From NCBI GenBank assembly GCA_037130655.1, contig JBAXSP010000002.1:13125-77124 (forward strand): a stretch of 64,000 bases of DNA. Direction: 5' to 3'. Both the position numbers and the translations under genes were made by a program. This DNA is from a bacterium (GTDB taxonomy: Bacteria > Patescibacteriota > Minisyncoccia > Phycocordibacterales > UBA9973). This document shows, piece after piece, positions 7,776 through 34,486 of this stretch. The notes under the pieces are model-generated. The model searched no databases, was not told the DNA's origin, and saw nothing but the letters and a program-made list of their open reading frames with translations. Numbering within the stretch: position 1 is the stretch's first letter; each line of letters begins with the position of its first letter.

Positions 7776-7806
7776 AAAAAAGCCTCGCACTGCGAGGCTT
7801 TTTGTT
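7776..7806. terminator. bidirectional terminator (gcctcgcactgcgaggc hairpin)
   Basis: aaaaaagcctcgcactgcgaggcttttt between the convergent ABC gene and the 195-aa gene. The identical hairpin recurs at 8474-8505. Confidence 0.75.
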
Positions 7807-8393
7807 TAGAAGAACTCATCTTCACTAATACCCCAATCATGGATTCTATCAGTATTTAGAATAAATCCAGTACAAGACAAAACTTTTTCAGGAGGAACAT
7901 TATGTGTTGATAAGAAATCAAAAATATCTTTTTGCATTTTTTCTGATATCTCAAAAGTCAATAAATTAATTTCATTAAAGAATGCTTCTTTTTCGTTTTC
8001 ATCAAGTATTGGTTTTTTGTTACGATTACAAGGCATTACACCTTTAAAAAAGATATTTTCACCAATTGACAGTAATTCAGGAAAAACAAAGAGTGGTATG
8101 TTTGAAGTCTGAAATGCTCTTTTGTGAAAAAGCTTACCTTTTGAATCGACTAAACTTTCGACTATCTTGCTGTGTTTTTCAAAAGTAAAGTTTTGAGAAA
8201 GCCCACCCATGAAATGTTTTGAAATATCGATATTTAGCTTATAAAATGCAATCCAAAAATTTCTAATATCAATACTATTTACTGTTTCTTTTCTTTTAAA
8301 AGATAGAAACACTCCTTGCTCTTCAAACTCATAAGATTCCGGAAATTGAGACGCAATATCTTTCAGATGAATTTTTAATATTTCACTATCCAT
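7806..8393 (-). CDS. hypothetical protein, paralog 1 of a tandem family
   Basis: 195 aa, very AT-rich, with an acidic C-terminus (ISEDEFF). The segment GVFLSFKRKETVNSIDIRNFWIAFYKLNID aligns with the next gene, so the two look like paralogs. Confidence 0.55.
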   Translation of the reverse strand: MDSEILKIHLKDIASQFPESYEFEEQGVFLSFKRKETVNSIDIRNFWIAFYKLNIDISKHFMGGLSQNFTFEKHSKIVESLVDSKGKLFHKRAFQTSNIPLFVFPELLSIGENIFFKGVMPCNRNKKPILDENEKEAFFNEINLLTFEISEKMQKDIFDFLSTHNVPPEKVLSCTGFILNTDRIHDWGISEDEFF

Positions 8394-8473
8394 TTTTATA
8401 AAGAATATAAACCAAAAATATTTTATTACATAAAAGATGTTTTGTCAAATATATCATTTACAGAAAAACGTAA

Positions 8474-8505
8474 ATAAAAAAACCTCGCACTGCGAGGCTT
8501 TTTTG
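8474..8505 (-). terminator. terminator, duplicate of the 7776-7806 hairpin
   Basis: aaaaaaacctcgcactgcgaggctttttt immediately 3' of the 177-aa gene. Confidence 0.7.
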
Positions 8506-8510
8506 ATTCC

Positions 8511-9044
8511 TTAATAATCTTCTTCTGGTGTTTCGTCTTCGTGCATTCTTATTCTGTAAATATTTTTAAATTTTACAGAAAGCCAAATATCGAAATACTC
8601 GAAATTTGATTGATCGATACGCTTAAGTTGATCTAGCTCGTTGTTTACGATATTCATGTACTTATCAATCGGTGGAATTAGTTTGAAATTTTCTGAACAA
8701 AAATTAAACATATTTTCATAACTATGTGCATCAATCGGCAATACAAACATCAATTCATCTGAAGATTCTAAGGGAAGGCAAATAACATTTAGGGCAAAAC
8801 TTTTATTAATCCAAACAGTTAAATAAAAAGGGTCTTTATTTAAAGAAAAAATACAATTCCAAAATTCATACACAGACTCCTCAGTACTTTCTTTGTTTAG
8901 AAAGAGACTAAATCCATCTGAGTGTTGAACGAACCTATAAGAACCGCAGTTCTCCGCATAGATTCTAGTGATTATTGCTTCCATGTTTTCGTTTTTAAAT
9001 TCCGAAATTATTCTATTATATATAATGATATTTGTCAAATTCAT
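8511..9044 (-). CDS. hypothetical protein, paralog 2 of a tandem family
   Basis: 177 aa. DGFSLFLNKESTEESVYEFWNCIFSLNKD aligns with paralog 1. Acidic tail HEDETPEEDY. Confidence 0.55.
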   Translation of the reverse strand: MNLTNIIIYNRIISEFKNENMEAIITRIYAENCGSYRFVQHSDGFSLFLNKESTEESVYEFWNCIFSLNKDPFYLTVWINKSFALNVICLPLESSDELMFVLPIDAHSYENMFNFCSENFKLIPPIDKYMNIVNNELDQLKRIDQSNFEYFDIWLSVKFKNIYRIRMHEDETPEEDY

Positions 9045-9065
9045 TATTTAGAAACACTCACCTAG

Positions 9066-9096
9066 AAAAAGAAAAGCCCTGCAATGCAGGGCTTTG
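9066..9096 (-). terminator. rho-independent terminator
   Basis: agccctgcaatgcagggct hairpin followed by a T-tract, in minus orientation after the 169-aa gene. Confidence 0.65.
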
Positions 9097-9099
9097 GTC

Positions 9100-9609
9100 T
9101 TAGCAATCAAGAAAGGTAACTGTTTTGATATGTTTGACAGGGATAAGTAATTTTATCGGCAGAGAGTCAGGATCTACTGGTTTAAAATCAGCATTCTCAA
9201 TTTCGATACTGCAACTTTTACATTTCTCAAGCAATTCCTCAAAATTATCACCAGTAGGTAACGCAACTAAAGCAACAACATATTTCTTTTCAGAAATCAT
9301 ATTAAGTGGAGAATGTAGGTATACATTGGTAAAAGTAAAATACTCATTTGCAACTACCATAAAACGCTTTTTATTAGAAGATTCATTCATCTGCTCTACA
9401 ACAGCAAAACCTTTTGCAAGTGTTACAGAAACATTTGCTCTGTCATTATTACACAATGGCGGATCGAGTGCGATTTTTTCCCAAAAATCAATTTGATTTG
9501 ATGTTTCAAATCGGGGTTCGATTTCAACGGTAATTTGATTGTCGATTTCCTGTGTAACGTAACAATGCTCAGTCATACTGATTGCCGCTTTTAAAAGTAT
9601 AGGGTCCAT
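9100..9609 (-). CDS. hypothetical protein, possible third paralog
   Basis: 169 aa; ETSNQIDFWEKIAL weakly resembles the FW motif of the two downstream genes. TTGACA-N17-TATATA promoter upstream. Confidence 0.5.
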   Translation of the reverse strand: MDPILLKAAISMTEHCYVTQEIDNQITVEIEPRFETSNQIDFWEKIALDPPLCNNDRANVSVTLAKGFAVVEQMNESSNKKRFMVVANEYFTFTNVYLHSPLNMISEKKYVVALVALPTGDNFEELLEKCKSCSIEIENADFKPVDPDSLPIKLLIPVKHIKTVTFLDC

Positions 9610-9713
9610 ATTTTTTTGTTATTTATTCGAATTTACTATATATTAAATATATACACTTGTCAATATTTATTTAATTTAGAAAAATCAGTATTTTTTGGTA
9701 TAATCAAAAAATT

Positions 9714-26617: not shown

Positions 26618-28351
26618 ATGCAACACATTACCCACTTCCGCCAAGGTCTATTGTTGACCTTATTATTTGTATTTCTTTTCGGAAACGAAAAGATCTTAGC
26701 CCAACAAAAGCATTATCCACTCACCGTGGTTGATACTTTTGATTTGTACAAAAAGTACATCAAAAATGACTCTTTCGCCTCTTTTAGTGCTAATGCACTG
26801 ATAGAACAGAGTACGTATTCTCATTTAGTTTTTTATGGTAAAAACCGTGATTTATATTTTTATAAATACGGACCAACACTTACTACTATTGATTCAATAG
26901 CATTTGAATCACCAACCAATCAATCGACACAAAACACTTTTATTTCAAACAACACTGGTTGTATTGTAATGAATTACCGTGGTGTTTATCAGTATGCAAA
27001 GGATGGAAAAGTGACGTGGAAAATTGAAACGGTTGGTGAAAGTTTTTTTCAATCAATCGTACAAGTAACTAATGGGTACATTCTCTGTGGAGGTATTGTA
27101 CAAAATGATAGTTTGTTTAACACACTTTCTTTTATCAATATCGATGGAAGCATCAAATGGCAACGGAATTTTTATAGCTTGCAAAATAGCTATGTATCAA
27201 TTTGCCAGGCATTAGCATATTGCAATAAGCACATATACTTCATGTATGCTGATTCAAATCAAATACGTGCAGATATTAGTGGTAACGGATTAGTCCCTTC
27301 TGCCAAAGTTGTAAAAATTGATTTAGATGGAAACAGTATTACCGAAACAACAGTAGCTGTATCGCCGAGAAGTTTTGTTATCAAAAACAATCAGCCGTTT
27401 TTATTTGGAGATGTTGTTGATGGAACAGGTCAATCACTCTATCGAGTGTATAAAATCGACACCACAACACTTACTGCAACACTGTATTTCAACAATGCAA
27501 CAAATGGATTATTACCTTATGGTGATAAATGGCTTTCGGTCAGCAGTAAAAATGTTCGAAGTGCTGACAAATTGCACAAAGAATTTATTACTTCCATTAG
27601 TGTGTTTGATATCATCGACACAGAAAGCATCAAAACTTCGTATGTTCAGCATTACACCAATGTATTCGATACACTGACTCAAGTAAGTTCAGATATAAAC
27701 AATCTGCAACTAGATGGAGATAACAATATCTTACTTACTTTTACCGTGAATCGAAAGTTTACCAACGGATCAGGATTGTTGTTATACAAAATTGTTTTAA
27801 GAAAAGATACGTTGCCAAATGTTGACTCTCTTTGGGCAACACAAACAACGGTAGCAAAACAAGAAGTAACGATTAGTTGTCAAACACTATTCAAACGAAC
27901 ACTACTTGTTACTGTTTGGAAAAAAGACAATTCTTCAACAATCAAAACATATGTTGATACGAACATTGCAACCAATCATGCTATCAGAAGTTTTTTCTCA
28001 GAACCAGGTGAATATGTATATACTGCGTATGCTATAGGCGGTCCGTACAAAGACACGATTACTTCAAATGAACATTCATTCACTGTTGATGCAGGAACCA
28101 ACGGAATCACACAAACAAACAACGATCAATTGATCAGTGTGTTTCCGAATCCATCGAATGGTAGTGTTGTTTTTGAAATAACTATTCCAGGAAATCTGAC
28201 GGTGTACACACTGGAAGGCAAAATGGTTTTGAATAAAAATATTCAAACCACTACCCCATTGGATATTTCAGTATTCGGTACTGGCATGTATGTATATAAG
28301 TTCTCGACAGATAAAAGCACTCTGACTGGAAAAATCATTGTTCAGCAATAA
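26618..28351 (+). CDS. secreted repeat protein with T9SS-type C-terminal sorting domain (Por_Secre_tail-like)
   Basis: Signal peptide. The last ~70 aa, VFPNPSNGSVVFEITIPGNLTVYTLEGKMVLNKNI...ISVFGTGMYVYKFSTDK...GKIIVQQ, match the PNP...G-l-vyd..G+.v...GvY.v+ pattern of the TIGR04183 CTD. Confidence 0.6.
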   Translation: MQHITHFRQGLLLTLLFVFLFGNEKILAQQKHYPLTVVDTFDLYKKYIKNDSFASFSANALIEQSTYSHLVFYGKNRDLYFYKYGPTLTTIDSIAFESPTNQSTQNTFISNNTGCIVMNYRGVYQYAKDGKVTWKIETVGESFFQSIVQVTNGYILCGGIVQNDSLFNTLSFINIDGSIKWQRNFYSLQNSYVSICQALAYCNKHIYFMYADSNQIRADISGNGLVPSAKVVKIDLDGNSITETTVAVSPRSFVIKNNQPFLFGDVVDGTGQSLYRVYKIDTTTLTATLYFNNATNGLLPYGDKWLSVSSKNVRSADKLHKEFITSISVFDIIDTESIKTSYVQHYTNVFDTLTQVSSDINNLQLDGDNNILLTFTVNRKFTNGSGLLLYKIVLRKDTLPNVDSLWATQTTVAKQEVTISCQTLFKRTLLVTVWKKDNSSTIKTYVDTNIATNHAIRSFFSEPGEYVYTAYAIGGPYKDTITSNEHSFTVDAGTNGITQTNNDQLISVFPNPSNGSVVFEITIPGNLTVYTLEGKMVLNKNIQTTTPLDISVFGTGMYVYKFSTDKSTLTGKIIVQQ

Positions 28352-28453
28352 TTTTTCCAACATCCAGTCACAAAGCCTCGTATAATGCGAGGCTTTTTTC
28401 TATGGTAATAAAATATGATACAAAACGTCTTATTTATGGAAGGAATAATATAT

Positions 28454-28481
28454 TGACATTATATTAATAATATGATATAAT
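28454..28481 (+). promoter_or_regulatory. sigma70-type promoter: TTGACA, 17-nt spacer, TGaTATAAT
   Basis: tatTTGACAttatattaataatatgaTATAATaca. A rare full -35/-10 pair here; it drives the conserved leader. Confidence 0.65.
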
Positions 28482-28488
28482 ACAATTA

Positions 28489-28556
28489 GTAAAGTTCTTT
28501 GATTTAGTTAGGTGTACAGAGCGGATCTTGGTCCTTTGTGTCCACCTAATTAAATA
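28489..28556 (+). ncRNA. conserved 5' leader element, copy 1 (candidate cis-regulatory RNA)
   Basis: agttctttgatttagttaggtgtacagagcggatcttggtcctttgtgtccacctaatt, about 80% identical to the leader at 33293-33385 (minus). Outer stem aggtg/cacct versus atgtg/cacat shows a compensatory change. Confidence 0.5.
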
Positions 28557-28559
28557 CAA

Positions 28560-28886
28560 ATGAAAAAAATATATTCAATCCTTATCTGTCTTGTTGCTTT
28601 GTCGAGTCAATCTTGTAAAAAAGAAATTTCTCAAAGCTATAAAGATAGTTTACCGAAAATAATATCTATAGAAAAACCTGAAGGACATTTTACTTATAGA
28701 TATAAGATGAAAGGTCAAGATACAAATTCGAAAGATCCTAAAACAGGAACTGTCTATAGAAGTTACGGAATTGCATTAGTTTTTTCCAACAATGTTTACA
28801 AAGTTGGAAGAATTATATCTGACGAACCCCTGGATCGATCAGATAGTACCAGCGTTATCGACTTTGTAACAGAAGTTGATAAATAA
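28560..28886 (+). CDS. lipoprotein, hypothetical
   Basis: MKKIYSILICLVALSSQSC lipobox; 108 aa. Confidence 0.6.
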   Translation: MKKIYSILICLVALSSQSCKKEISQSYKDSLPKIISIEKPEGHFTYRYKMKGQDTNSKDPKTGTVYRSYGIALVFSNNVYKVGRIISDEPLDRSDSTSVIDFVTEVDK

Positions 28887-28927: not shown

Positions 28928-30622
28928 AGACCCATGAACCATATCGTGTTTTTCTAACACAATGTGCGATGACATATATTCTTTCGTCGTACCAACTTTC
29001 TTGTTCGGATTGAAAATGTTTTCCGGATCAAACAATTCTTTTGTTTGCTTGAACAGATTCAAAATCTCAGGAGAAAAGATCTTTCCAAGATACGGCGTAC
29101 GAACAAGTCCGTCATTGTGTTCGGCGGTAATTGTTCCATTGAACTCTCGGACCAAATCATAGACTTTTTCAGATAACTCCATAATCACCTCTTTAGTGTG
29201 GGTATCAGTGAAATCCATCAGTGGAATGATATGGAAGTTGCCATTACCTGCGTGTCCGGCAATCGTGTAGACCAACTTGTATTCTGCAAGTAACGCATTG
29301 AGTCTTGGCAAAAATACAGGAAGAAATTCTGGCTTGATACACACATCATCAATAAATGGCGCCGTGTGCTTGCCTTTGACATGTTTACGGAGCATATTGA
29401 AACTTTCTCGTCGCATCCGCCAATACTTTTCTCCATCAGCTTTTGATTTGGTCACCCGTGTTTTGAAACCAAATGATGCAATTTGCTTTTGTGCATTTCT
29501 TGTTGCTCGCTCAACTTCATCTAGATTATTACCAGTAAATTCTGCAATCATGACGAGTTTTGGTACACCGCCAGTTGCCATCATAAACACTTCAGGAATG
29601 AACGAAATTCCCATTTTGATAAATTGCCACAAACTCATTCGCTTCAAGAAATCAGGCATGAACTTCACTGCCAATTTCAAACTATAATCATCGTAACTTT
29701 CGATACTTTCTGGACCAAGCGGAAGAATCGTATCAACCAAATGTCCCAATCGAGAAAGGTCATTCATAAACACAACAAGAAGTCGTGATTCTTTGGTCAC
29801 ATCAGTCAGGTTGAATGTAATCTCTGTAACAATTCCGAGTGTCCCTTGTGAGCCCACAATCAATCTACACAAATCAAAACTTTCGGTTTCTTTATCATAA
29901 ATATTCCACAAATAATAACCGGCAGAATTTTTTGATACTTGCGGTTTTGCAGAAGTTATCAACATGTCGTTATCATTAATCAGTTGCAACAGTTCTTTGT
30001 AGAGTTCTGCTTCGACACTAACCTCTGCGACTTTTTGATAGAGTTCTTTCTTCGTCATTCGTTTGACGGTGTATTCATAGCCATCACGAAAGACGACTTT
30101 CAATTCACGAATCCAGTCTTCAGTCTTGCCAAATTTGATAGACTTTTCTCCACCACTATTGTTCCCTACCATTCCACCAACCGCGCACAATTCCTTTGAT
30201 GCGGTATATGATGGCAAGATCAAATTTTCAGCCAATGTAACTTTTTCAAAATCTCGGTAGAATGTTCCCGGAAGTACAGTCGCATAACCTGTCACTTTGT
30301 GACCATACGACATTTCATCAGTCTTTGTAATCTTCCCAATACCGTTCATATAACGAGACATATCAAGAATGATTGATTCATTGATCGAACCACCTGACAT
30401 ACAAGTTCCTGCACAACGTGGAGTGATTGAGAGAGTCGGATCTTCTTTCTTGTGTTCATTGACCCATTTGACCAACAAACAAACATCAGTGGAATCTTTT
30501 GGAAATACAATCACCTTTGGACGAACTACGAATATACTCGCATCACGAGAATATTTCTCCAATGCTTCGTCACTCATTTCTACATCCCCTCTTATTATGT
30601 TCTTTAAATCGTCGAAATTCAT
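28925..30622 (-). CDS. FAD-linked oxidoreductase (GlcD / D-lactate dehydrogenase family)
   Basis: FAD-binding PCMH domain (CAGTCMSGGS, GGNNSGGEKS) and a FAD-oxidase C-terminal domain. Leaderless: TATACT-ttatat-ATG. Confidence 0.8.
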   Translation of the reverse strand: MNFDDLKNIIRGDVEMSDEALEKYSRDASIFVVRPKVIVFPKDSTDVCLLVKWVNEHKKEDPTLSITPRCAGTCMSGGSINESIILDMSRYMNGIGKITKTDEMSYGHKVTGYATVLPGTFYRDFEKVTLAENLILPSYTASKELCAVGGMVGNNSGGEKSIKFGKTEDWIRELKVVFRDGYEYTVKRMTKKELYQKVAEVSVEAELYKELLQLINDNDMLITSAKPQVSKNSAGYYLWNIYDKETESFDLCRLIVGSQGTLGIVTEITFNLTDVTKESRLLVVFMNDLSRLGHLVDTILPLGPESIESYDDYSLKLAVKFMPDFLKRMSLWQFIKMGISFIPEVFMMATGGVPKLVMIAEFTGNNLDEVERATRNAQKQIASFGFKTRVTKSKADGEKYWRMRRESFNMLRKHVKGKHTAPFIDDVCIKPEFLPVFLPRLNALLAEYKLVYTIAGHAGNGNFHIIPLMDFTDTHTKEVIMELSEKVYDLVREFNGTITAEHNDGLVRTPYLGKIFSPEILNLFKQTKELFDPENIFNPNKKVGTTKEYMSSHIVLEKHDMVHGS

Positions 30623-30750
30623 ATATAAAGTATATCAGAGTATAGATATTCAGAGTATAGACAAAACTATTCGCATATTCGCGCGAATTAGGAAATAAAA
30701 AAAACACAAAAAAAACCCGCACAATGTACGGATTTTCCGTTAGTCGTGCG
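30623..30750 (-). promoter_or_regulatory. upstream module copy A: terminator, ATTCGC-ATTCGCGCGAAT operator-like palindrome, tandem TATACT boxes
   Basis: About 110 nt shared with 32797-32962. Palindrome at 30669-30688; two ctatactctga repeats immediately before the ATG. Confidence 0.55.
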
Positions 30751-30759
30751 GGCTATAAT

Positions 30760-31116
30760 TTATTTCTCTTGTTTTGTATTATTTAAATCTTCTGCGCTAC
30801 AGTCAGCATTCAAGAAAAAGTTATCTCCTTTTTGTAAACAGTTATATTGCTTAGAGGTTACATATACATCTTCAGTACGATTTTTGCCTCCAAATAAGCC
30901 TTCTATGGTTATTACCCAATCTTCATTGTCGGTAACAATATAAGGTTTTAATACCATTGATTTACCACAAGGGATTGTCATAAACATGATGTAATTTCTT
31001 GTTGGTTCATAATGTTTTGAAACTACTTTTCCTTCTTTAAGTTGATTACAACCTGTTGATATAAAAAGTACTAACAAAACAAACAGAGAAATAGCAAAGT
31101 TAATTATTTTTTTCAT
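30760..31116 (-). CDS. lipoprotein, hypothetical
   Basis: MKKIINFAISLFVLLVLFISTGC lipobox. Start set at the internal Met. Preceded by a TTGACA-N17-TATAAT promoter and a 14-bp 5'UTR hairpin. Confidence 0.55.
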   Translation of the reverse strand: MKKIINFAISLFVLLVLFISTGCNQLKEGKVVSKHYEPTRNYIMFMTIPCGKSMVLKPYIVTDNEDWVITIEGLFGGKNRTEDVYVTSKQYNCLQKGDNFFLNADCSAEDLNNTKQEK

Positions 31117-31327
31117 TTTTAGAGTTGGTTTAAGAGAAAAGACCTTATCTACTCTCTTAAACCAACTAGTCAAAATGAATCCTGAAAAGAACTATTATAG
31201 TTATATTATAGCATATAATATAAGTATTTGTCAATAGATATAAAAAGAGGCGGAAAAGCTTTGCTTTTCCGCCTCTTTTTATGTTCTAGCTAGAGCCTAG
31301 ATGCCTAGCACCTATTAGTCTAATTAA

Positions 31328-31932: not shown

Positions 31933-32796
31933 TTAGAGATTATTGAATAGTTTCAATCGTGCTTCAACTACTTTCTCTATAGCATCAACGGCTGGTTGCA
32001 GAATTTTTGCAGGAGTGATTTCTTCCGGATTTTCTTCCATGAATTTGTCTGTAGCTTCTTTGAAAGCTAAACGGATTTCACTATTGATATGAACAATAGA
32101 AATTCCTGCTTGTATTGCATTAGTAAAATCTTCATCACGAAGCCCTGAACCTCCGTGCAGTACGAGTGGTACACCGGTCACACTCTTAATCTCTGCAACA
32201 AGTTCCGCATCAATATGCGGTTTACCAGACTTGATGAGCCCGTGAATACTACCGACAGATGGAGCGAATAAATCGATACCAGTCATATCAACAAAGTTTT
32301 TTGCATCTTCAGGTTTTGTCAGTACTCCAGCGCCTTCAGGGATACTATCTCGAACAATTGAACCTGAACCGATAAAACCAAGTTCTGCTTCAACCAAAAT
32401 ATCTCTACCGGTTTGACTAGAAACTTCACGTGCATAATCGACACATTGTTTGGTAAGTGCAACATTTTCTTCAAACGGCAATTTTGCAACATCAATAATG
32501 ACCATATCAAATCCTGCATCAATACATTTTTTGACTGATTCGAAACTACCATGATGATCAGCATTTAAGAATATTGGATAATTATCACGGTCACGTATTG
32601 CGTGTACCAATGCAACAACTTCTTCAAGCCCAGCAAATTTTTCTTCACCTTCTGAAACTCCAATAATAACTGGTAAATTGAGCTTCTTTGCTGCGTTGTA
32701 AATACCATGCAATGCTTCTAAATTTGAAATATTAAAATGCCCAATGGCAACCTTGTTTTCCTCTGCTTCTTTGATGTATGTGCGTAGTGTCTTCAT
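31933..32796 (-). CDS. fba: fructose-bisphosphate aldolase, class II
   Basis: HFNISNLEALHGIYNAAKKLNLPVIIGVSEGE, DHHGSFE and LHGGSG motifs of the class II FBA/TBP aldolase family. Start at MKTLRTY (32796), 8 nt after TATACT. Confidence 0.85.
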   Translation of the reverse strand: MKTLRTYIKEAEENKVAIGHFNISNLEALHGIYNAAKKLNLPVIIGVSEGEEKFAGLEEVVALVHAIRDRDNYPIFLNADHHGSFESVKKCIDAGFDMVIIDVAKLPFEENVALTKQCVDYAREVSSQTGRDILVEAELGFIGSGSIVRDSIPEGAGVLTKPEDAKNFVDMTGIDLFAPSVGSIHGLIKSGKPHIDAELVAEIKSVTGVPLVLHGGSGLRDEDFTNAIQAGISIVHINSEIRLAFKEATDKFMEENPEEITPAKILQPAVDAIEKVVEARLKLFNNL

Positions 32797-32962
32797 ATAA
32801 GATAAGTATATCAGAGTATAGATATTCAGAATATAGAAAAACAGGACAGCTTTTACTTGTCCCATTTAAAACTATTCGCCTATTCGCGCGAATTAGGCAA
32901 TAGCGAAATCAAAAAGAAAAAAACCCGCACACTGTGTACGGGGTTTTTTCCGTGCACATTGT
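32797..32962 (-). promoter_or_regulatory. upstream module copy B (terminator, ATTCGCGCGAAT palindrome, tandem -10 boxes)
   Basis: Palindrome at 32874-32893, ctatactctga/ctatattctga repeats, and a terminator hairpin cccgcacactgtgtacgggg serving the upstream gene. Confidence 0.55.
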
Positions 32963-32971
32963 GCGAGTTTG

Positions 32972-33292
32972 TTATTTTATAAGACCACAATTGTAATCAA
33001 TATAAAATTTTGCTCCTCTTCTGTAAAAGATTTTAAACAGACTGTCTTGGAGATCCATTGACCAAGGCACCAGTTTTTTCATATTGAGGAATACATACAA
33101 AATAGTAGCACCTACAGTAATGAGAAAACCGGCAAGATTTACGTATGGATTATCGGAATCTCGCATCATGTCAATTCCTATTATTAAAAATGGAAAGTCC
33201 ATTAATATAATAAGAAGTTTGGCAATGACGCATCCGAGACCTCCCATAGTCTGTTTTTTGGAGTAGAGTTTGTTGAATAATCTTCTTTTCAT
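32972..33292 (-). CDS. small membrane protein, hypothetical
   Basis: 106 aa, 2-3 TM. Preceded by copy 2 of the conserved leader. Confidence 0.5.
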   Translation of the reverse strand: MKRRLFNKLYSKKQTMGGLGCVIAKLLIILMDFPFLIIGIDMMRDSDNPYVNLAGFLITVGATILYVFLNMKKLVPWSMDLQDSLFKIFYRRGAKFYIDYNCGLIK

Positions 33293-33385
33293 TTTGGTAT
33301 TTAATTAATTAATTATGTGGACACAAAGGACATAATCCACTCTGTTCACATAACTAAATAACAATGTATTAATGAACTCTACCTA
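33293..33385 (-). ncRNA. conserved 5' leader element, copy 2
   Basis: Minus-strand leader gtagagttcattaatacattgttatttagttatgtgaacagagtggattatgtcctttgtgtccacataattaattaattaa-ATG, with a TTGACA-N18-TGgTATACT promoter upstream. Confidence 0.5.
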
Positions 33386-33481
33386 TATAAGTATACCATA
33401 CTATATGAATATTTGTCAATAGACTGAATTTTTATCACTTTCCCCTACATTATAAGAATAGTACTCTGATATACTTATTTC

Positions 33482-34486
33482 ATGAACTTATTTGGAAATA
33501 AATCCTATGACATTGTATGTATCGGAGACATTGTGACCGATGCTTTTATTAGACTTAAAGATGCGAATGTGCACTGCAAGATTGATCAAACTGCTTGTGA
33601 GCTTTGTGTACGTTTTGGTGACAAAGTACCATTCGAGTCTTCGACTATCGTGCGAGCTGTCGGTAACAGCGCAAATGCTGCCGTCTCAGCTTCACGACTT
33701 GGACTTTCTACTGGATTGATGAGCGTTGTTGGAAATGATGAGGAAGGGAAAAAATGCCTAGAAACATTGAAAGAAAATAATGTTGGAACAGCGTATATGG
33801 AAACTGATCCAAAACTACCGACCAATTATCACTATGTACTTTGGTACGATGTTGAACGAACAATCTTAGTTAATCACTCGCCTTTTGAACGACATATTCC
33901 AAAAAACTTCAAAGCACCAAAATGGATTTATCTGACATCACTCGGAGAAAACACTGAGGCATTTCATCACGAAATAACTGCCTGGCTCAAAGCACATCCA
34001 GAAACAAAATTGGTTTTCCAGCCTGGAACATTCCAAATGAAATTAGGAAAAGAACATTTGGCTGATATATATAAAATGAGCGAACTATTCTTTTGTAATG
34101 TCGAAGAAGCACAAAGAATTCTTGGTACACAAGAGGCTGATAAAAAAACGTTGATGAATATGTTGGCAGGACTTGGACCAAAGATTGTCGTGATGACTGA
34201 TGGGATCAATGGTGCGTACGCACGAGACACAGACGGAACATGTTACTTTATGCCGGTGTATCCACATGATCCATACGAACGTACTGGCGCAGGAGACGCA
34301 TTTGCTTCAACTGTCGTGTCAGCACTCGCACTTGGGAAAGATTTGAAAACTGCGCTCACTTGGGGCCCAATCAATTCAATGTCAGTCGTACAAAAAATTG
34401 GCGCACAAGCCGGATTGCTCCCAAGAAAAGAACTTGAAGATTACTTGAGCAAAGCTCCAGAAGATTACAAATTGAAAACTATATAA
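33482..34486 (+). CDS. carbohydrate kinase, PfkB/ribokinase family
   Basis: N-terminal IVCIGDIVTDAF and C-terminal ERTGAGDAFAST (anion hole). Leaderless: TGaTATACT-tatttc-ATG. Confidence 0.8.
   Translation: MNLFGNKSYDIVCIGDIVTDAFIRLKDANVHCKIDQTACELCVRFGDKVPFESSTIVRAVGNSANAAVSASRLGLSTGLMSVVGNDEEGKKCLETLKENNVGTAYMETDPKLPTNYHYVLWYDVERTILVNHSPFERHIPKNFKAPKWIYLTSLGENTEAFHHEITAWLKAHPETKLVFQPGTFQMKLGKEHLADIYKMSELFFCNVEEAQRILGTQEADKKTLMNMLAGLGPKIVVMTDGINGAYARDTDGTCYFMPVYPHDPYERTGAGDAFASTVVSALALGKDLKTALTWGPINSMSVVQKIGAQAGLLPRKELEDYLSKAPEDYKLKTI

What the first reader, a model, noticed from the sequence alone, without database searches (positions are those of the whole stretch)
33293..33420. Second copy of the conserved leader (minus strand) with its own TTGACA-N18-TGgTATACT promoter
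This is the partner of the 28489-28556 element. It sits in a divergent intergenic region and drives the 106-aa membrane protein. The plus-strand PfkB kinase gene in the same region instead starts leaderless, 6 nt after TGaTATACT.
Basis: seen in the sequence. Interest (0 to 1): 0.55.

Follow-up and report, generated by a model that had tools for sequence, protein, structure and literature searches.

The report
Reused promoter plus hairpin leader module
Three unrelated small envelope-protein genes in one tiny-genome (Patescibacteria) bacterium carry copies of the same strong promoter and long hairpin-forming mRNA leader; this is a real, lineage-specific regulatory module, unusual in a genome where most mRNAs have no leader, but of a kind already known.

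Summary
The stretch 33290-33419 (minus strand) holds a TTGACA-N18-TGgTATACT promoter and a 91-nt leader. Its core, a 47-nt imperfect hairpin, is 87% identical to the one at 28505-28552 (plus strand).

I found a third, more diverged copy at 31114-31234 (minus strand). All three share this layout:
- a consensus promoter with an extended -10;
- 11 nt, then an AGTTCWTT box;
- a hairpin with 21-nt arms;
- an A-rich spacer without a Shine-Dalgarno sequence, then ATGAAAA.

All 19 stem pairs are kept in all three copies, although the hairpins are only 56-60% identical to copy C. Six pairs show compensatory double changes, and the G.U pairs are conserved, which points to RNA folding on the sense strand.

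The three downstream proteins are unrelated. Two are singletons with no homologue found. All three genes are insertions into a conserved FAD-oxidase/aldolase/PfkB block.

No Rfam family, phage record or other genome or metagenome carries the motif.

Best reading: a reused promoter plus structured 5' UTR module whose hairpin sits in the ribosome landing zone and gates translation and/or mRNA stability. That mechanism is inferred, not shown. It is a new member of a known kind, of moderate interest.

The parts
33414..33419 (-). Copy B: -35 hexamer TTGACA
33390..33398 (-). Copy B: extended -10, TGGTATACT (18-nt spacer)
33371..33378 (-). Copy B: AGTTCATT box, 11 nt after the -10. UUCAUU is complementary to AAUGAA at the start codon.
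33310..33356 (-). Copy B: leader hairpin with 19 pairs, three 1x1 mismatches and a 3-nt loop. Folding energy -17.8 kcal/mol, z = -5.7.
32972..33292 (-). Copy B gene: 106-aa ORF with two hydrophobic segments. It is a singleton with no homologue. NCBI calls a 65-aa version starting at M42.
32797..32953 (-). Copy B 3' flank: terminator (32924-32942), the AATTCGCGCGAATA element, and the CTATAyTCTGAATATCTATACTCTGATATACTT promoter of the aldolase gene. It is homologous to the 3' flank of copy C.
28453..28481 (+). Copy A: promoter TTGACA-N17-TGATATAAT (12/12)
28493..28500 (+). Copy A: AGTTCTTT box, 11 nt after the -10
28505..28552 (+). Copy A: leader hairpin with 19 pairs and a 4-nt loop. Folding energy -20.6 kcal/mol, z = -4.6.
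28560..28886 (+). Copy A gene: 108-aa protein with an N-terminal signal or anchor segment; a singleton
31205..31234 (-). Copy C: promoter TTGACA-N18-TGCTATAAT (12/12)
31186..31193 (-). Copy C: AGTTCTTT box, 11 nt after the -10
31171..31178 (-). Copy C: UUCAUUUU, exactly complementary to AAAAUGAA at the start codon; paired with it in the MFE fold
31123..31167 (-). Copy C: leader hairpin in register with A and B. Folding energy -24.8 kcal/mol, z = -6.5. A model built from A and B alone recovers it (27.2 bits).
30760..31116 (-). Copy C gene: 118-aa lipoprotein-like protein (true start ATG at 31116). It belongs to an uncharacterised family with 309 representatives.
30615..30740 (-). Copy C 3' flank: terminator, the AATTCGCGCGAATA element and the duplicated TGATATACT promoter of the FAD-oxidase gene. 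It is homologous to the 3' flank of copy B.
33467..33484 (+). PfkB leaderless start: TGATATACT, 6 nt, then ATG

Best explanation
This is one of three paralogous copies of a portable expression module, made of a near-consensus sigma-70-type promoter with an extended -10 and a 72-91-nt structured 5' UTR. In this Patescibacteria lineage the module has been reused in front of three unrelated small envelope-protein genes. Those genes were inserted into a conserved sugar-metabolism gene block.

The conserved core acts as RNA. It is a rod-like hairpin with 21-nt arms that ends 7-17 nt before a start codon with no Shine-Dalgarno sequence, inside the region a 30S subunit must occupy. An upstream UUC(A/U)UU box can pair with AAUGAA at the start codon and close the whole leader.

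The hairpin therefore most likely gates translation initiation (by default dampening it) and/or sets the stability of these transcripts. This would put the three genes under one common post-transcriptional control.

Shown: homology of the three copies, the promoters, conservation of the stem by compensatory change, the sense-strand bias, the unrelated cargo genes, and their insertion status. Inferred: that transcription starts at these promoters, that the RNA folds in vivo, and the effect on translation or stability.
For: - Homology and promoters.
- Only three copies exist in the window plus about 30 kb of extra DNA from the same genome or a close strain. A model built from A and B alone recovers C as the only further hit.
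- Stem conservation: 19/19 pairs hold in all three copies, and 6 pairs show changes on both sides. None of 500 shuffles reaches these values, and sliding the 3' partners drops pairing to 41-47%. This holds although the hairpins are only 56-60% identical to C.
- Sense-strand RNA: G.U pairs are conserved at the same columns, and the antisense strand scores 32-39 bits against 65-76 for the sense strand.
- Folding z-scores are -4.6 to -6.5.
- In the MFE of all three full leaders the AUG pairs with an upstream UUC(A/U)UU box. C and B are among the 4 least accessible start codons of 68 ORFs.
- Genome context: SD-like motifs occur in 3/68 ORFs. 28/68 ORFs have a -10 hexamer 4-10 nt before the ATG, against 9.7% of all ATG triplets. 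In a promoter-anchored scan of the window and relatives, A, B, C and one leader in a relative (L011) were the only long leaders folding well below their shuffles, apart from one mis-called start whose upstream stretch includes a terminator.
- Cargo genes are unrelated and are insertions relative to the synteny in relatives.
- Promoter reuse before non-homologous genes is a documented phenomenon (PMC3575422).
Against: - There are no transcript, TSS or structure-probing data.
- There are only three copies, all in one genome and within 5 kb, so their shared ancestry inflates apparent conservation.
- The start-codon pairing beats shuffles of the 5' segment only in C (0.7%). It does not in A (35%) or B (13%).
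- The predicted structure does not open between 5 and 45 C, so a trigger is missing.
- Relatives with 84-85% identical PfkB carry other small genes in the same slot, with short unstructured leaders. The hairpin is therefore not required for expressing such genes.
- Compensatory-looking changes in a palindrome can also arise by template-switch mutation, without selection.
Confidence: 0.5

Rival explanations
1. The hairpin is mainly a processing or stability determinant. It would be a roughly 20-bp double-stranded RNase III substrate, or a block to 5'-to-3' decay by RNase J. It would then set transcript half-life or generate a processed 5' end, rather than occlude the ribosome.
For: The stem has 19-21 pairs with 1x1 internal loops, about two helical turns, like phage and Correia-element RNase III sites (the comparison is from my own knowledge). 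Patescibacteria generally retain RNase III, RNase J and PNPase (PMC12641178). No thermal opening is predicted, which fits a constitutive structural role.
Against: The hairpin starts 18-30 nt from the predicted 5' end, not at it, so it is poorly placed as a 5' stabiliser. The presence of rnc or rnj in this genome was not checked. Cleavage cannot be predicted from sequence.
Confidence: 0.2
2. The element works as DNA. It would be an imperfect palindromic operator (half-sites about AnAGAG / CTYTnT) downstream of the start site, bound by a dimeric repressor that blocks elongation and co-regulates the three genes.
For: It is an inverted repeat. The apical half-sites ACAGAG/CTTTGT (A, B) and AGAGAG/CTCTCT-like (C) are the best conserved part. 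The same AGTTC box lies at fixed spacing from the -10 in all three copies.
Against: The basal arms covary rather than keep their sequence: 5 of 10 basal pairs are changed on both sides in C. That is the signature of pairing, not of half-site recognition. The conserved G.T positions are mismatches at the DNA level, leaving only about 16 of 22 stem positions (the 19 pairs plus three 1x1 mismatches) complementary in A and B. The position, roughly +20 to +80 from the inferred start site, is unusual for an operator. No candidate regulator was identified.
Confidence: 0.12
3. The element is a non-functional by-product. A small palindromic or MITE-like sequence, or a locally duplicated intergenic segment, happened to carry a promoter. 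The hairpin persists through recent origin and palindrome-correcting template-switch mutation, not through selection.
For: All copies lie within 5 kb in a region with other duplicated intergenic segments. The motif was not found in any other genome, metagenome or phage record searched. Close relatives lack it. In C, two of the three mismatches are 'corrected' to pairs.
Against: At 40-44% sequence divergence between C and A/B, not one of the 19 pairs is lost. The three 1x1 mismatches and the G.U pairs are retained at identical positions in A and B. The copies always occur in the same promoter-leader-ATG register, never free-standing. No target-site duplications or transposase were seen.
Confidence: 0.13

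Closest known systems
Putative mobile promoters / promoter reuse (Matus-Garcia, Nijveen & van Passel 2012; commentary PMC3575422)
   Same: Highly similar upstream regulatory DNA sits in front of non-homologous genes within one genome. That survey also found leader RNA motifs travelling with such promoters.
   Different: Their operational window was -150 to -50, with at least 80% identity over at least 50 nt. Here the best-conserved 53 nt lie at about -70 to -4. Only the A/B pair passes 80%; C is 56-60% identical in the hairpin. B and C also share a 3' flank (terminator plus the next gene's promoter).
Start-site-occluding 5' UTR stem-loops, including RNA thermometers (fourU, ROSE) and the IS200 tnpA leader hairpin
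   Same: A stable leader hairpin lies next to or includes the initiation region. A U-rich strand pairs with the A-rich start region.
   Different: There is no Shine-Dalgarno sequence to mask. Only the AUG and flanking A's are paired, and that pairing is statistically weak in A and B. No melting is predicted between 5 and 45 C. No sequence similarity to any Rfam family was found.
Promoter-bearing palindromic repeats processed by RNase III (Neisseria Correia elements; ERIC; REPIN)
   Same: The inverted-repeat arms form a hairpin of about 20 bp on the mRNA. The element supplies or accompanies a strong promoter and is found before unrelated genes.
   Different: Those elements are dispersed in tens to hundreds of copies, have defined terminal repeats and target duplications, and occur in both orientations. 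Here there are three copies in 5 kb, always in the same register between a promoter and an ATG, with no target duplication.

Membership tests
Any Rfam 15 RNA family | Covariance-model score at or above the family's gathering threshold | tested here: not met
   The whole window at gathering threshold gives only two tRNAs. Permissive scans of both leaders give only chance hits to eukaryotic snoRNA and miRNA families, at 13-20 bits against thresholds of 47-119.
Putative mobile promoter (PMP) | Homologous upstream regions in front of genes that are not homologous to each other | tested here: met
   Upstream regions are 64-77% identical over 120-130 aligned nt. The three proteins give no BLASTP alignment at E<=100.
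Putative mobile promoter (PMP) | At least 80% identity over at least 50 nt within -150 to -50 of the start codon (the authors' operational criterion, PMC3575422) | tested here: inconclusive
   A and B are 87% identical over 53 nt, but that stretch lies at about -57 to -4 (A) and -66 to -14 (B). Pairs involving C are below 80%.
RNA thermometer (fourU / ROSE type) | The hairpin masks the SD and/or AUG | tested here: inconclusive
   There is no SD. The AUG is paired in all three MFE folds, but this exceeds shuffles only for C.
RNA thermometer (fourU / ROSE type) | The masking helix melts gradually over the physiological temperature range | tested here: not met
   Predicted AUG accessibility is essentially unchanged from 5 to 45 C (A 0.34 to 0.42, B 0.20 to 0.25, C 0.00 to 0.01). 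This is an in silico result only.
Intrinsic terminator / transcription attenuator | A G+C-rich stem directly followed by a U-tract, or alternative terminator/antiterminator folds | tested here: not met
   The hairpins are followed by AAAUACAAAUG, AUUAAUUAAAUACC and CUAAAAAUG, with no T-run. The terminator scan does not report them.
Leader-peptide (uORF) attenuation | A conserved short ORF in the leader | tested here: not met
   Read from the sequence. The GTG-initiated 13- and 14-codon frames in A and B fall out of register after the 1-nt loop indel and encode different peptides. C has only TTG-GTT-TAA.
MITE / REPIN / Correia-like mobile palindrome | Many dispersed copies independent of gene context, with terminal inverted repeats and target-site duplication | tested here: not met
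   There are three copies, all in the promoter-leader-ATG register within 5 kb. None occur elsewhere in the window, in the 7.7 kb of left flank, or in a related strain. No duplicated flanking bases were seen. The rest of the genome was not available.
RNase III substrate | A double-stranded stem of about 20 bp or more | tested here: met
   19 pairs across 21-nt arms in all three copies.
RNase III substrate | Specific cleavage by RNase III | not testable with these tools
   This needs an enzyme assay or 5'-end mapping.
CsrA/RsmA binding leader | GGA motifs presented in hairpin loops, overlapping the initiation region | tested here: not met
   A and B have GGAU inside the apical stem, not in the loop. 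C has AGAU at that position.

The most novel reading that the evidence does not exclude
The module may be a lineage-specific 'expression adaptor' for newly acquired genes in a genome that otherwise runs on leaderless, SD-less mRNAs. The consensus promoter plus conserved hairpin would be recognised by an unknown RNA-binding regulator or helicase, forming a small regulon of variable surface proteins. Together with the conserved 3' flank (terminator plus the next gene's promoter), the module would give homology arms that let small ORFs be swapped in and out of fixed slots between housekeeping genes. A leader of the same architecture in front of an inserted NUDIX gene in a relative with 72% identical PfkB (L011 14590-14707) would then be a distant member of a clade-wide class.
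Probability: 0.12. Interest if true: 0.7.

Novelty: new member of a known kind. Interest (0 to 1): 0.4.

Why it matters
Almost nothing is known about gene regulation in Patescibacteria (the candidate phyla radiation), because nearly all of them are uncultured.

This window shows a genome in which Shine-Dalgarno sites are essentially absent and about 40% of genes look leaderless. Against that background, three inserted small envelope-protein genes stand out. They carry a long leader whose stem is kept by compensatory changes, behind a perfect promoter.

If the hairpin is a regulatory RNA, it gives a compact, testable handle on three questions. How do such organisms control translation without an SD? 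How do newly acquired or orphan surface proteins get wired into expression? And can promoter-plus-leader modules spread independently of genes?

If it is only a local duplication, it is still a clean example of promoter reuse.

Tried and rejected
- **Rfam, all 4227 families.** No match at the gathering threshold, and only noise at E<=10.
- **Exact-pattern scans of public collections.** ACAGAG-N8-14-CTTTGTGTCCACNTAA gave one chance hit inside a Mariniphaga coding region among GTDB species genomes and none in the JGI metagenomes. The relaxed family pattern TAGTTNNNTNNANAGAGNNGAT-N3-4-GTCNTTTNTNT gave none in IMG/VR or the JGI metagenomes.
- **blastn against phage records.** No match.
- **Orthologous slots in relatives.** The PfkB/aldolase slot was examined in relatives with 72-85% identical PfkB and scanned with model R1. 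The closest relatives hold different small genes there, and the more distant ones no gene between aldolase and PfkB. None has the hairpin.
- **Homologues of the B and A proteins.** None besides the proteins themselves. Pfam and NCBIfam gave nothing significant.
- **Thermometer idea.** Rejected because no melting is predicted.
- **Attenuator/terminator, uORF and CsrA ideas.** Rejected on sequence features.
- **Integron attC.** Considered because A contains GTTAGGT (GTTRRRY). Rejected: B and C do not fit the consensus, the order of the two core sites is inverted relative to attC, and the hairpin lies between a promoter and a gene rather than 3' of a cassette.
- **The L011 leader as a fourth member.** It scores 24 bits with R1 but is not recovered by the model built from A and B alone, and it aligns poorly. 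I keep it only as an architectural analogue.
- **Start-codon pairing.** The shuffle test gives only modest support, so I keep this pairing as a hypothesis, not a finding.

Full report
**What is at the coordinates**

On the minus strand, 33419-33290 reads as follows:
- TTGACA at 33419-33414;
- an 18-nt spacer, then TGGTATACT at 33398-33390;
- 11 nt, then AGTTCATT at 33378-33371;
- a 47-nt imperfect hairpin at 33356-33310;
- an A/T-rich spacer, then ATGAAAAGA.

The ATG at 33292 opens a 106-aa ORF with two hydrophobic segments. The consensus scan scores the promoter 11/12 with a TG extension.

On the plus strand, PfkB (33482-34486; Pfam PF00294, E = 3e-36) starts 6 nt after TGATATACT (33467-33475).

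**Is it a real second copy?**

Yes. Aligning 33278-33440 (minus) with 28420-28575 (plus) gives 79% mean column identity from the -35 hexamer through the ATG. The 53-nt hairpin core is 46/53 identical.

The shared core (ACAGAGyGGAT...GTCCTTTGTGTCCAC) contains G and C. A 30-nt pattern built from it has no match in 100 dinucleotide-preserving shuffles.

**A third copy**

A perfect TTGACA-N18-TGCTATAAT promoter at 31234-31205 (minus strand) precedes the same layout:
- 11 nt, then AGTTCTTT;
- a spacer, then TAGTT and a hairpin with 21-nt arms (31167-31123);
- CUAAAA, then ATGAAAAAA at 31116.

That ATG is the true start of a 118-aa lipoprotein-like protein. The Logan gene call agrees.

A covariance model built from the three hairpins finds only these three sites in the window, at 75.7, 71 and 64.7 bits. 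The antisense strand scores 32-39 bits, and the next unrelated hit scores 20 bits.

A model built from A and B alone still recovers C, at 27.2 bits and E about 1e-3. It is the only extra hit in 115 kb of window plus relatives, so C's membership does not depend on a circular model.

No further copy occurs in 7.7 kb of extra left flank, in 1.7 kb of right flank, or in a closely related strain.

**Structure**

Each hairpin folds far better than its shuffles: -20.6, -17.8 and -24.8 kcal/mol, with z = -4.6, -5.7 and -6.5.

On the three-sequence alignment, all 19 pairs are standard pairs in all three copies. Six pairs are changed on both sides (five in the basal stem and one in the apical stem). None of 500 column shuffles reaches these values, and sliding the 3' partners by 1-3 columns drops pairing to 41-47%.

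This holds although the C hairpin is only 56-60% identical to A and B.

Two G.U pairs are conserved in all three copies and a third in A and B. These are mismatches on the opposite strand and in duplex DNA. Together with the sense/antisense score gap, this favours an RNA fold on the gene's sense strand.

Two caveats apply. There are only three paralogues. And template-switch mutation in palindromes can mimic compensatory change.

**What the hairpin is not**

- It is not a known Rfam family.
- It is not a terminator or attenuator. No U-tract follows it, and the terminator scan does not report it.
- It holds no conserved uORF. The short GTG frames in A and B go out of register at the loop indel, and C has a 2-codon frame.
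- It is not a CsrA-type site, because C lacks the GGA.
- It does not behave like a thermometer in silico. Start-codon accessibility is flat from 5 to 45 C.

**Start-codon pairing**

When the whole leader is folded from the predicted +1 to +27 of the ORF, the AUG pairs with an upstream UUC(A/U)UU sequence in all three copies:
- In A and B the partner is the conserved AGTTCWTT box.
- In C the partner is a second, perfect UUCAUUUU next to the hairpin.

C and B are among the four least accessible start codons of 68 ORFs in the window.

Shuffling only the 5' segment shows that this pairing is unusual for C (0.7% of shuffles) but not for A (35%) or B (13%). I therefore treat it as a hypothesis.

One point holds independently of the pairing. 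The 21-nt-arm hairpin ends 7-17 nt before the AUG. That is inside the region a 30S subunit covers (established knowledge of ribosome footprints), and no SD is there to anchor the subunit.

**Genome context**

PfkB homologues place the window in Patescibacteria. The named close relatives are Paceibacterota/Pacebacteria MAGs. The exact contig is an NCBI 'MAG: bacterium' contig of 158,922 bp.

SD-like motifs precede only 3 of 68 ORFs. 28 of 68 ORFs have a -10-like hexamer ending 4-10 nt before the ATG, against 9.7% of all ATG triplets. Leaderless and SD-less initiation therefore dominates.

In a promoter-anchored scan of the window and relatives, A, B, C and one leader in L011 were the only long (72-91 nt), strongly structured leaders. 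One further case was a mis-called start whose upstream stretch includes a terminator.

**Cargo and evolution**

The three downstream proteins share no detectable similarity:
- The B and A proteins have no homologue other than themselves among 5.8 billion proteins. NCBI annotates only a 65-aa version of B.
- The C protein belongs to an uncharacterised family of about 115-aa proteins, with 309 representatives.

In relatives with 73-74% identical PfkB (L010, L013, L014), the block reads L25, a small gene, FAD-oxidase, aldolase, a 75-nt gap, then PfkB. In relatives with 84-85% identical PfkB (L003, L004), the aldolase/PfkB slot holds different small membrane-protein genes with short, unstructured leaders.

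The three module-bearing genes are therefore lineage-specific insertions.

B and C also share a 3' flank made of a terminator, an AATTCGCGCGAATA element and a CTATACTCTGATATACTT promoter. This flank re-supplies a leaderless promoter to the displaced aldolase and FAD-oxidase genes.

This fits the documented phenomenon of promoter reuse, or 'putative mobile promoters' (PMC3575422). The authors' strict identity and position criteria are only partly met.

**Distribution**

Exact and relaxed motif patterns found nothing real in GTDB species genomes, JGI metagenomes or IMG/VR. Nothing matched in phage records.

A relative with 72% identical PfkB has a leader of the same architecture: TTGACA-17-TGATACTAT, a GTTC near +5, a 19-bp hairpin, then the ATG of an inserted NUDIX gene (L011 14590-14707). 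It does not align convincingly, and the model built from A and B alone does not recover it. I count it as an analogue, not a member.

**Verdict**

The element is one of three copies of a reused promoter plus structured-leader module.

The most likely function is a cis-acting RNA hairpin that gates translation and/or stability of three inserted small envelope-protein genes (confidence about 0.5). The rivals are:
- an RNase III or stability role (0.2);
- a DNA operator (0.12);
- a non-functional duplicated palindrome (0.13).

It is a new member of a known kind. Interest is moderate (0.4), mainly because of the contrast with a leaderless, SD-less CPR genome and the clean covariation signal.

Noticed in passing
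whole window (68 ORFs): The genome is essentially free of Shine-Dalgarno sites (3/68 ORFs). About 41% of ORFs have a -10-like hexamer, often TG-extended, ending 4-10 nt before the ATG, against 9.7% of all ATG triplets. Leaderless mRNAs therefore appear to dominate in this Patescibacteria MAG.
   Followed up: partly
window 33460-33484 (+), 32797-32841 (-), 30615-30665 (-): PfkB, the aldolase and the FAD-oxidase share a promoter element, (CTATAyTCTGA ATAT) CTATACTCTGATATACTT, just before their leaderless starts. It may be a common operator or promoter for the sugar-metabolism genes, or a duplicated promoter.
   Followed up: partly
window 30663-30715 and 32868-32920: An 85% identical 53-nt repeat containing the palindrome AATTCGCGCGAATA lies between the terminators of the C and B genes and the promoters of the FAD-oxidase and aldolase genes. 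Its function is unknown.
   Followed up: no
window 31933-32865 (-): The longest ORF for the aldolase starts at 32865 (310 aa). The conserved start is MKTLRTY, near 32796 (the Logan call is 287 aa). The N-terminal extension is translated repeat/promoter DNA.
   Followed up: partly
L011 14590-14707 (+) (JGI 3300056850, 816-kb contig): A relative has the same leader architecture in front of an inserted NUDIX hydrolase gene that lies on the opposite strand to its neighbours: TTGACA-17-TGATACTAT, a GTTC near +5, a 19-bp hairpin, 10 nt, then ATG. It scores 24 bits with R1, but the model built from A and B alone does not find it.
   Followed up: partly
window 7806-9663 (-): Three consecutive orphan ORFs of 169-195 aa each sit behind their own TTGACA-N17-TAnnAT promoter with a short A/T-rich leader. 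They may be a tandem paralogue family.
   Followed up: no
window 26618-28351 (+): A 577-aa protein with a C-terminal Por_Secre_tail (T9SS sorting) domain (PF18962, E = 1.7e-8) occurs in a Patescibacteria genome. In this lineage it is inserted between L25 and the FAD-oxidase gene.
   Followed up: no
PfkB/aldolase intergenic slot: window 32866-33481; L003 3872-4661; L004 122-622: Each close relative carries a different small membrane-protein gene (106, 182 or 74 aa) with its own strong promoter in the same slot. More distant relatives have only 75 nt there. The slot looks like a hot spot for gain and replacement of small envelope genes.
   Followed up: partly
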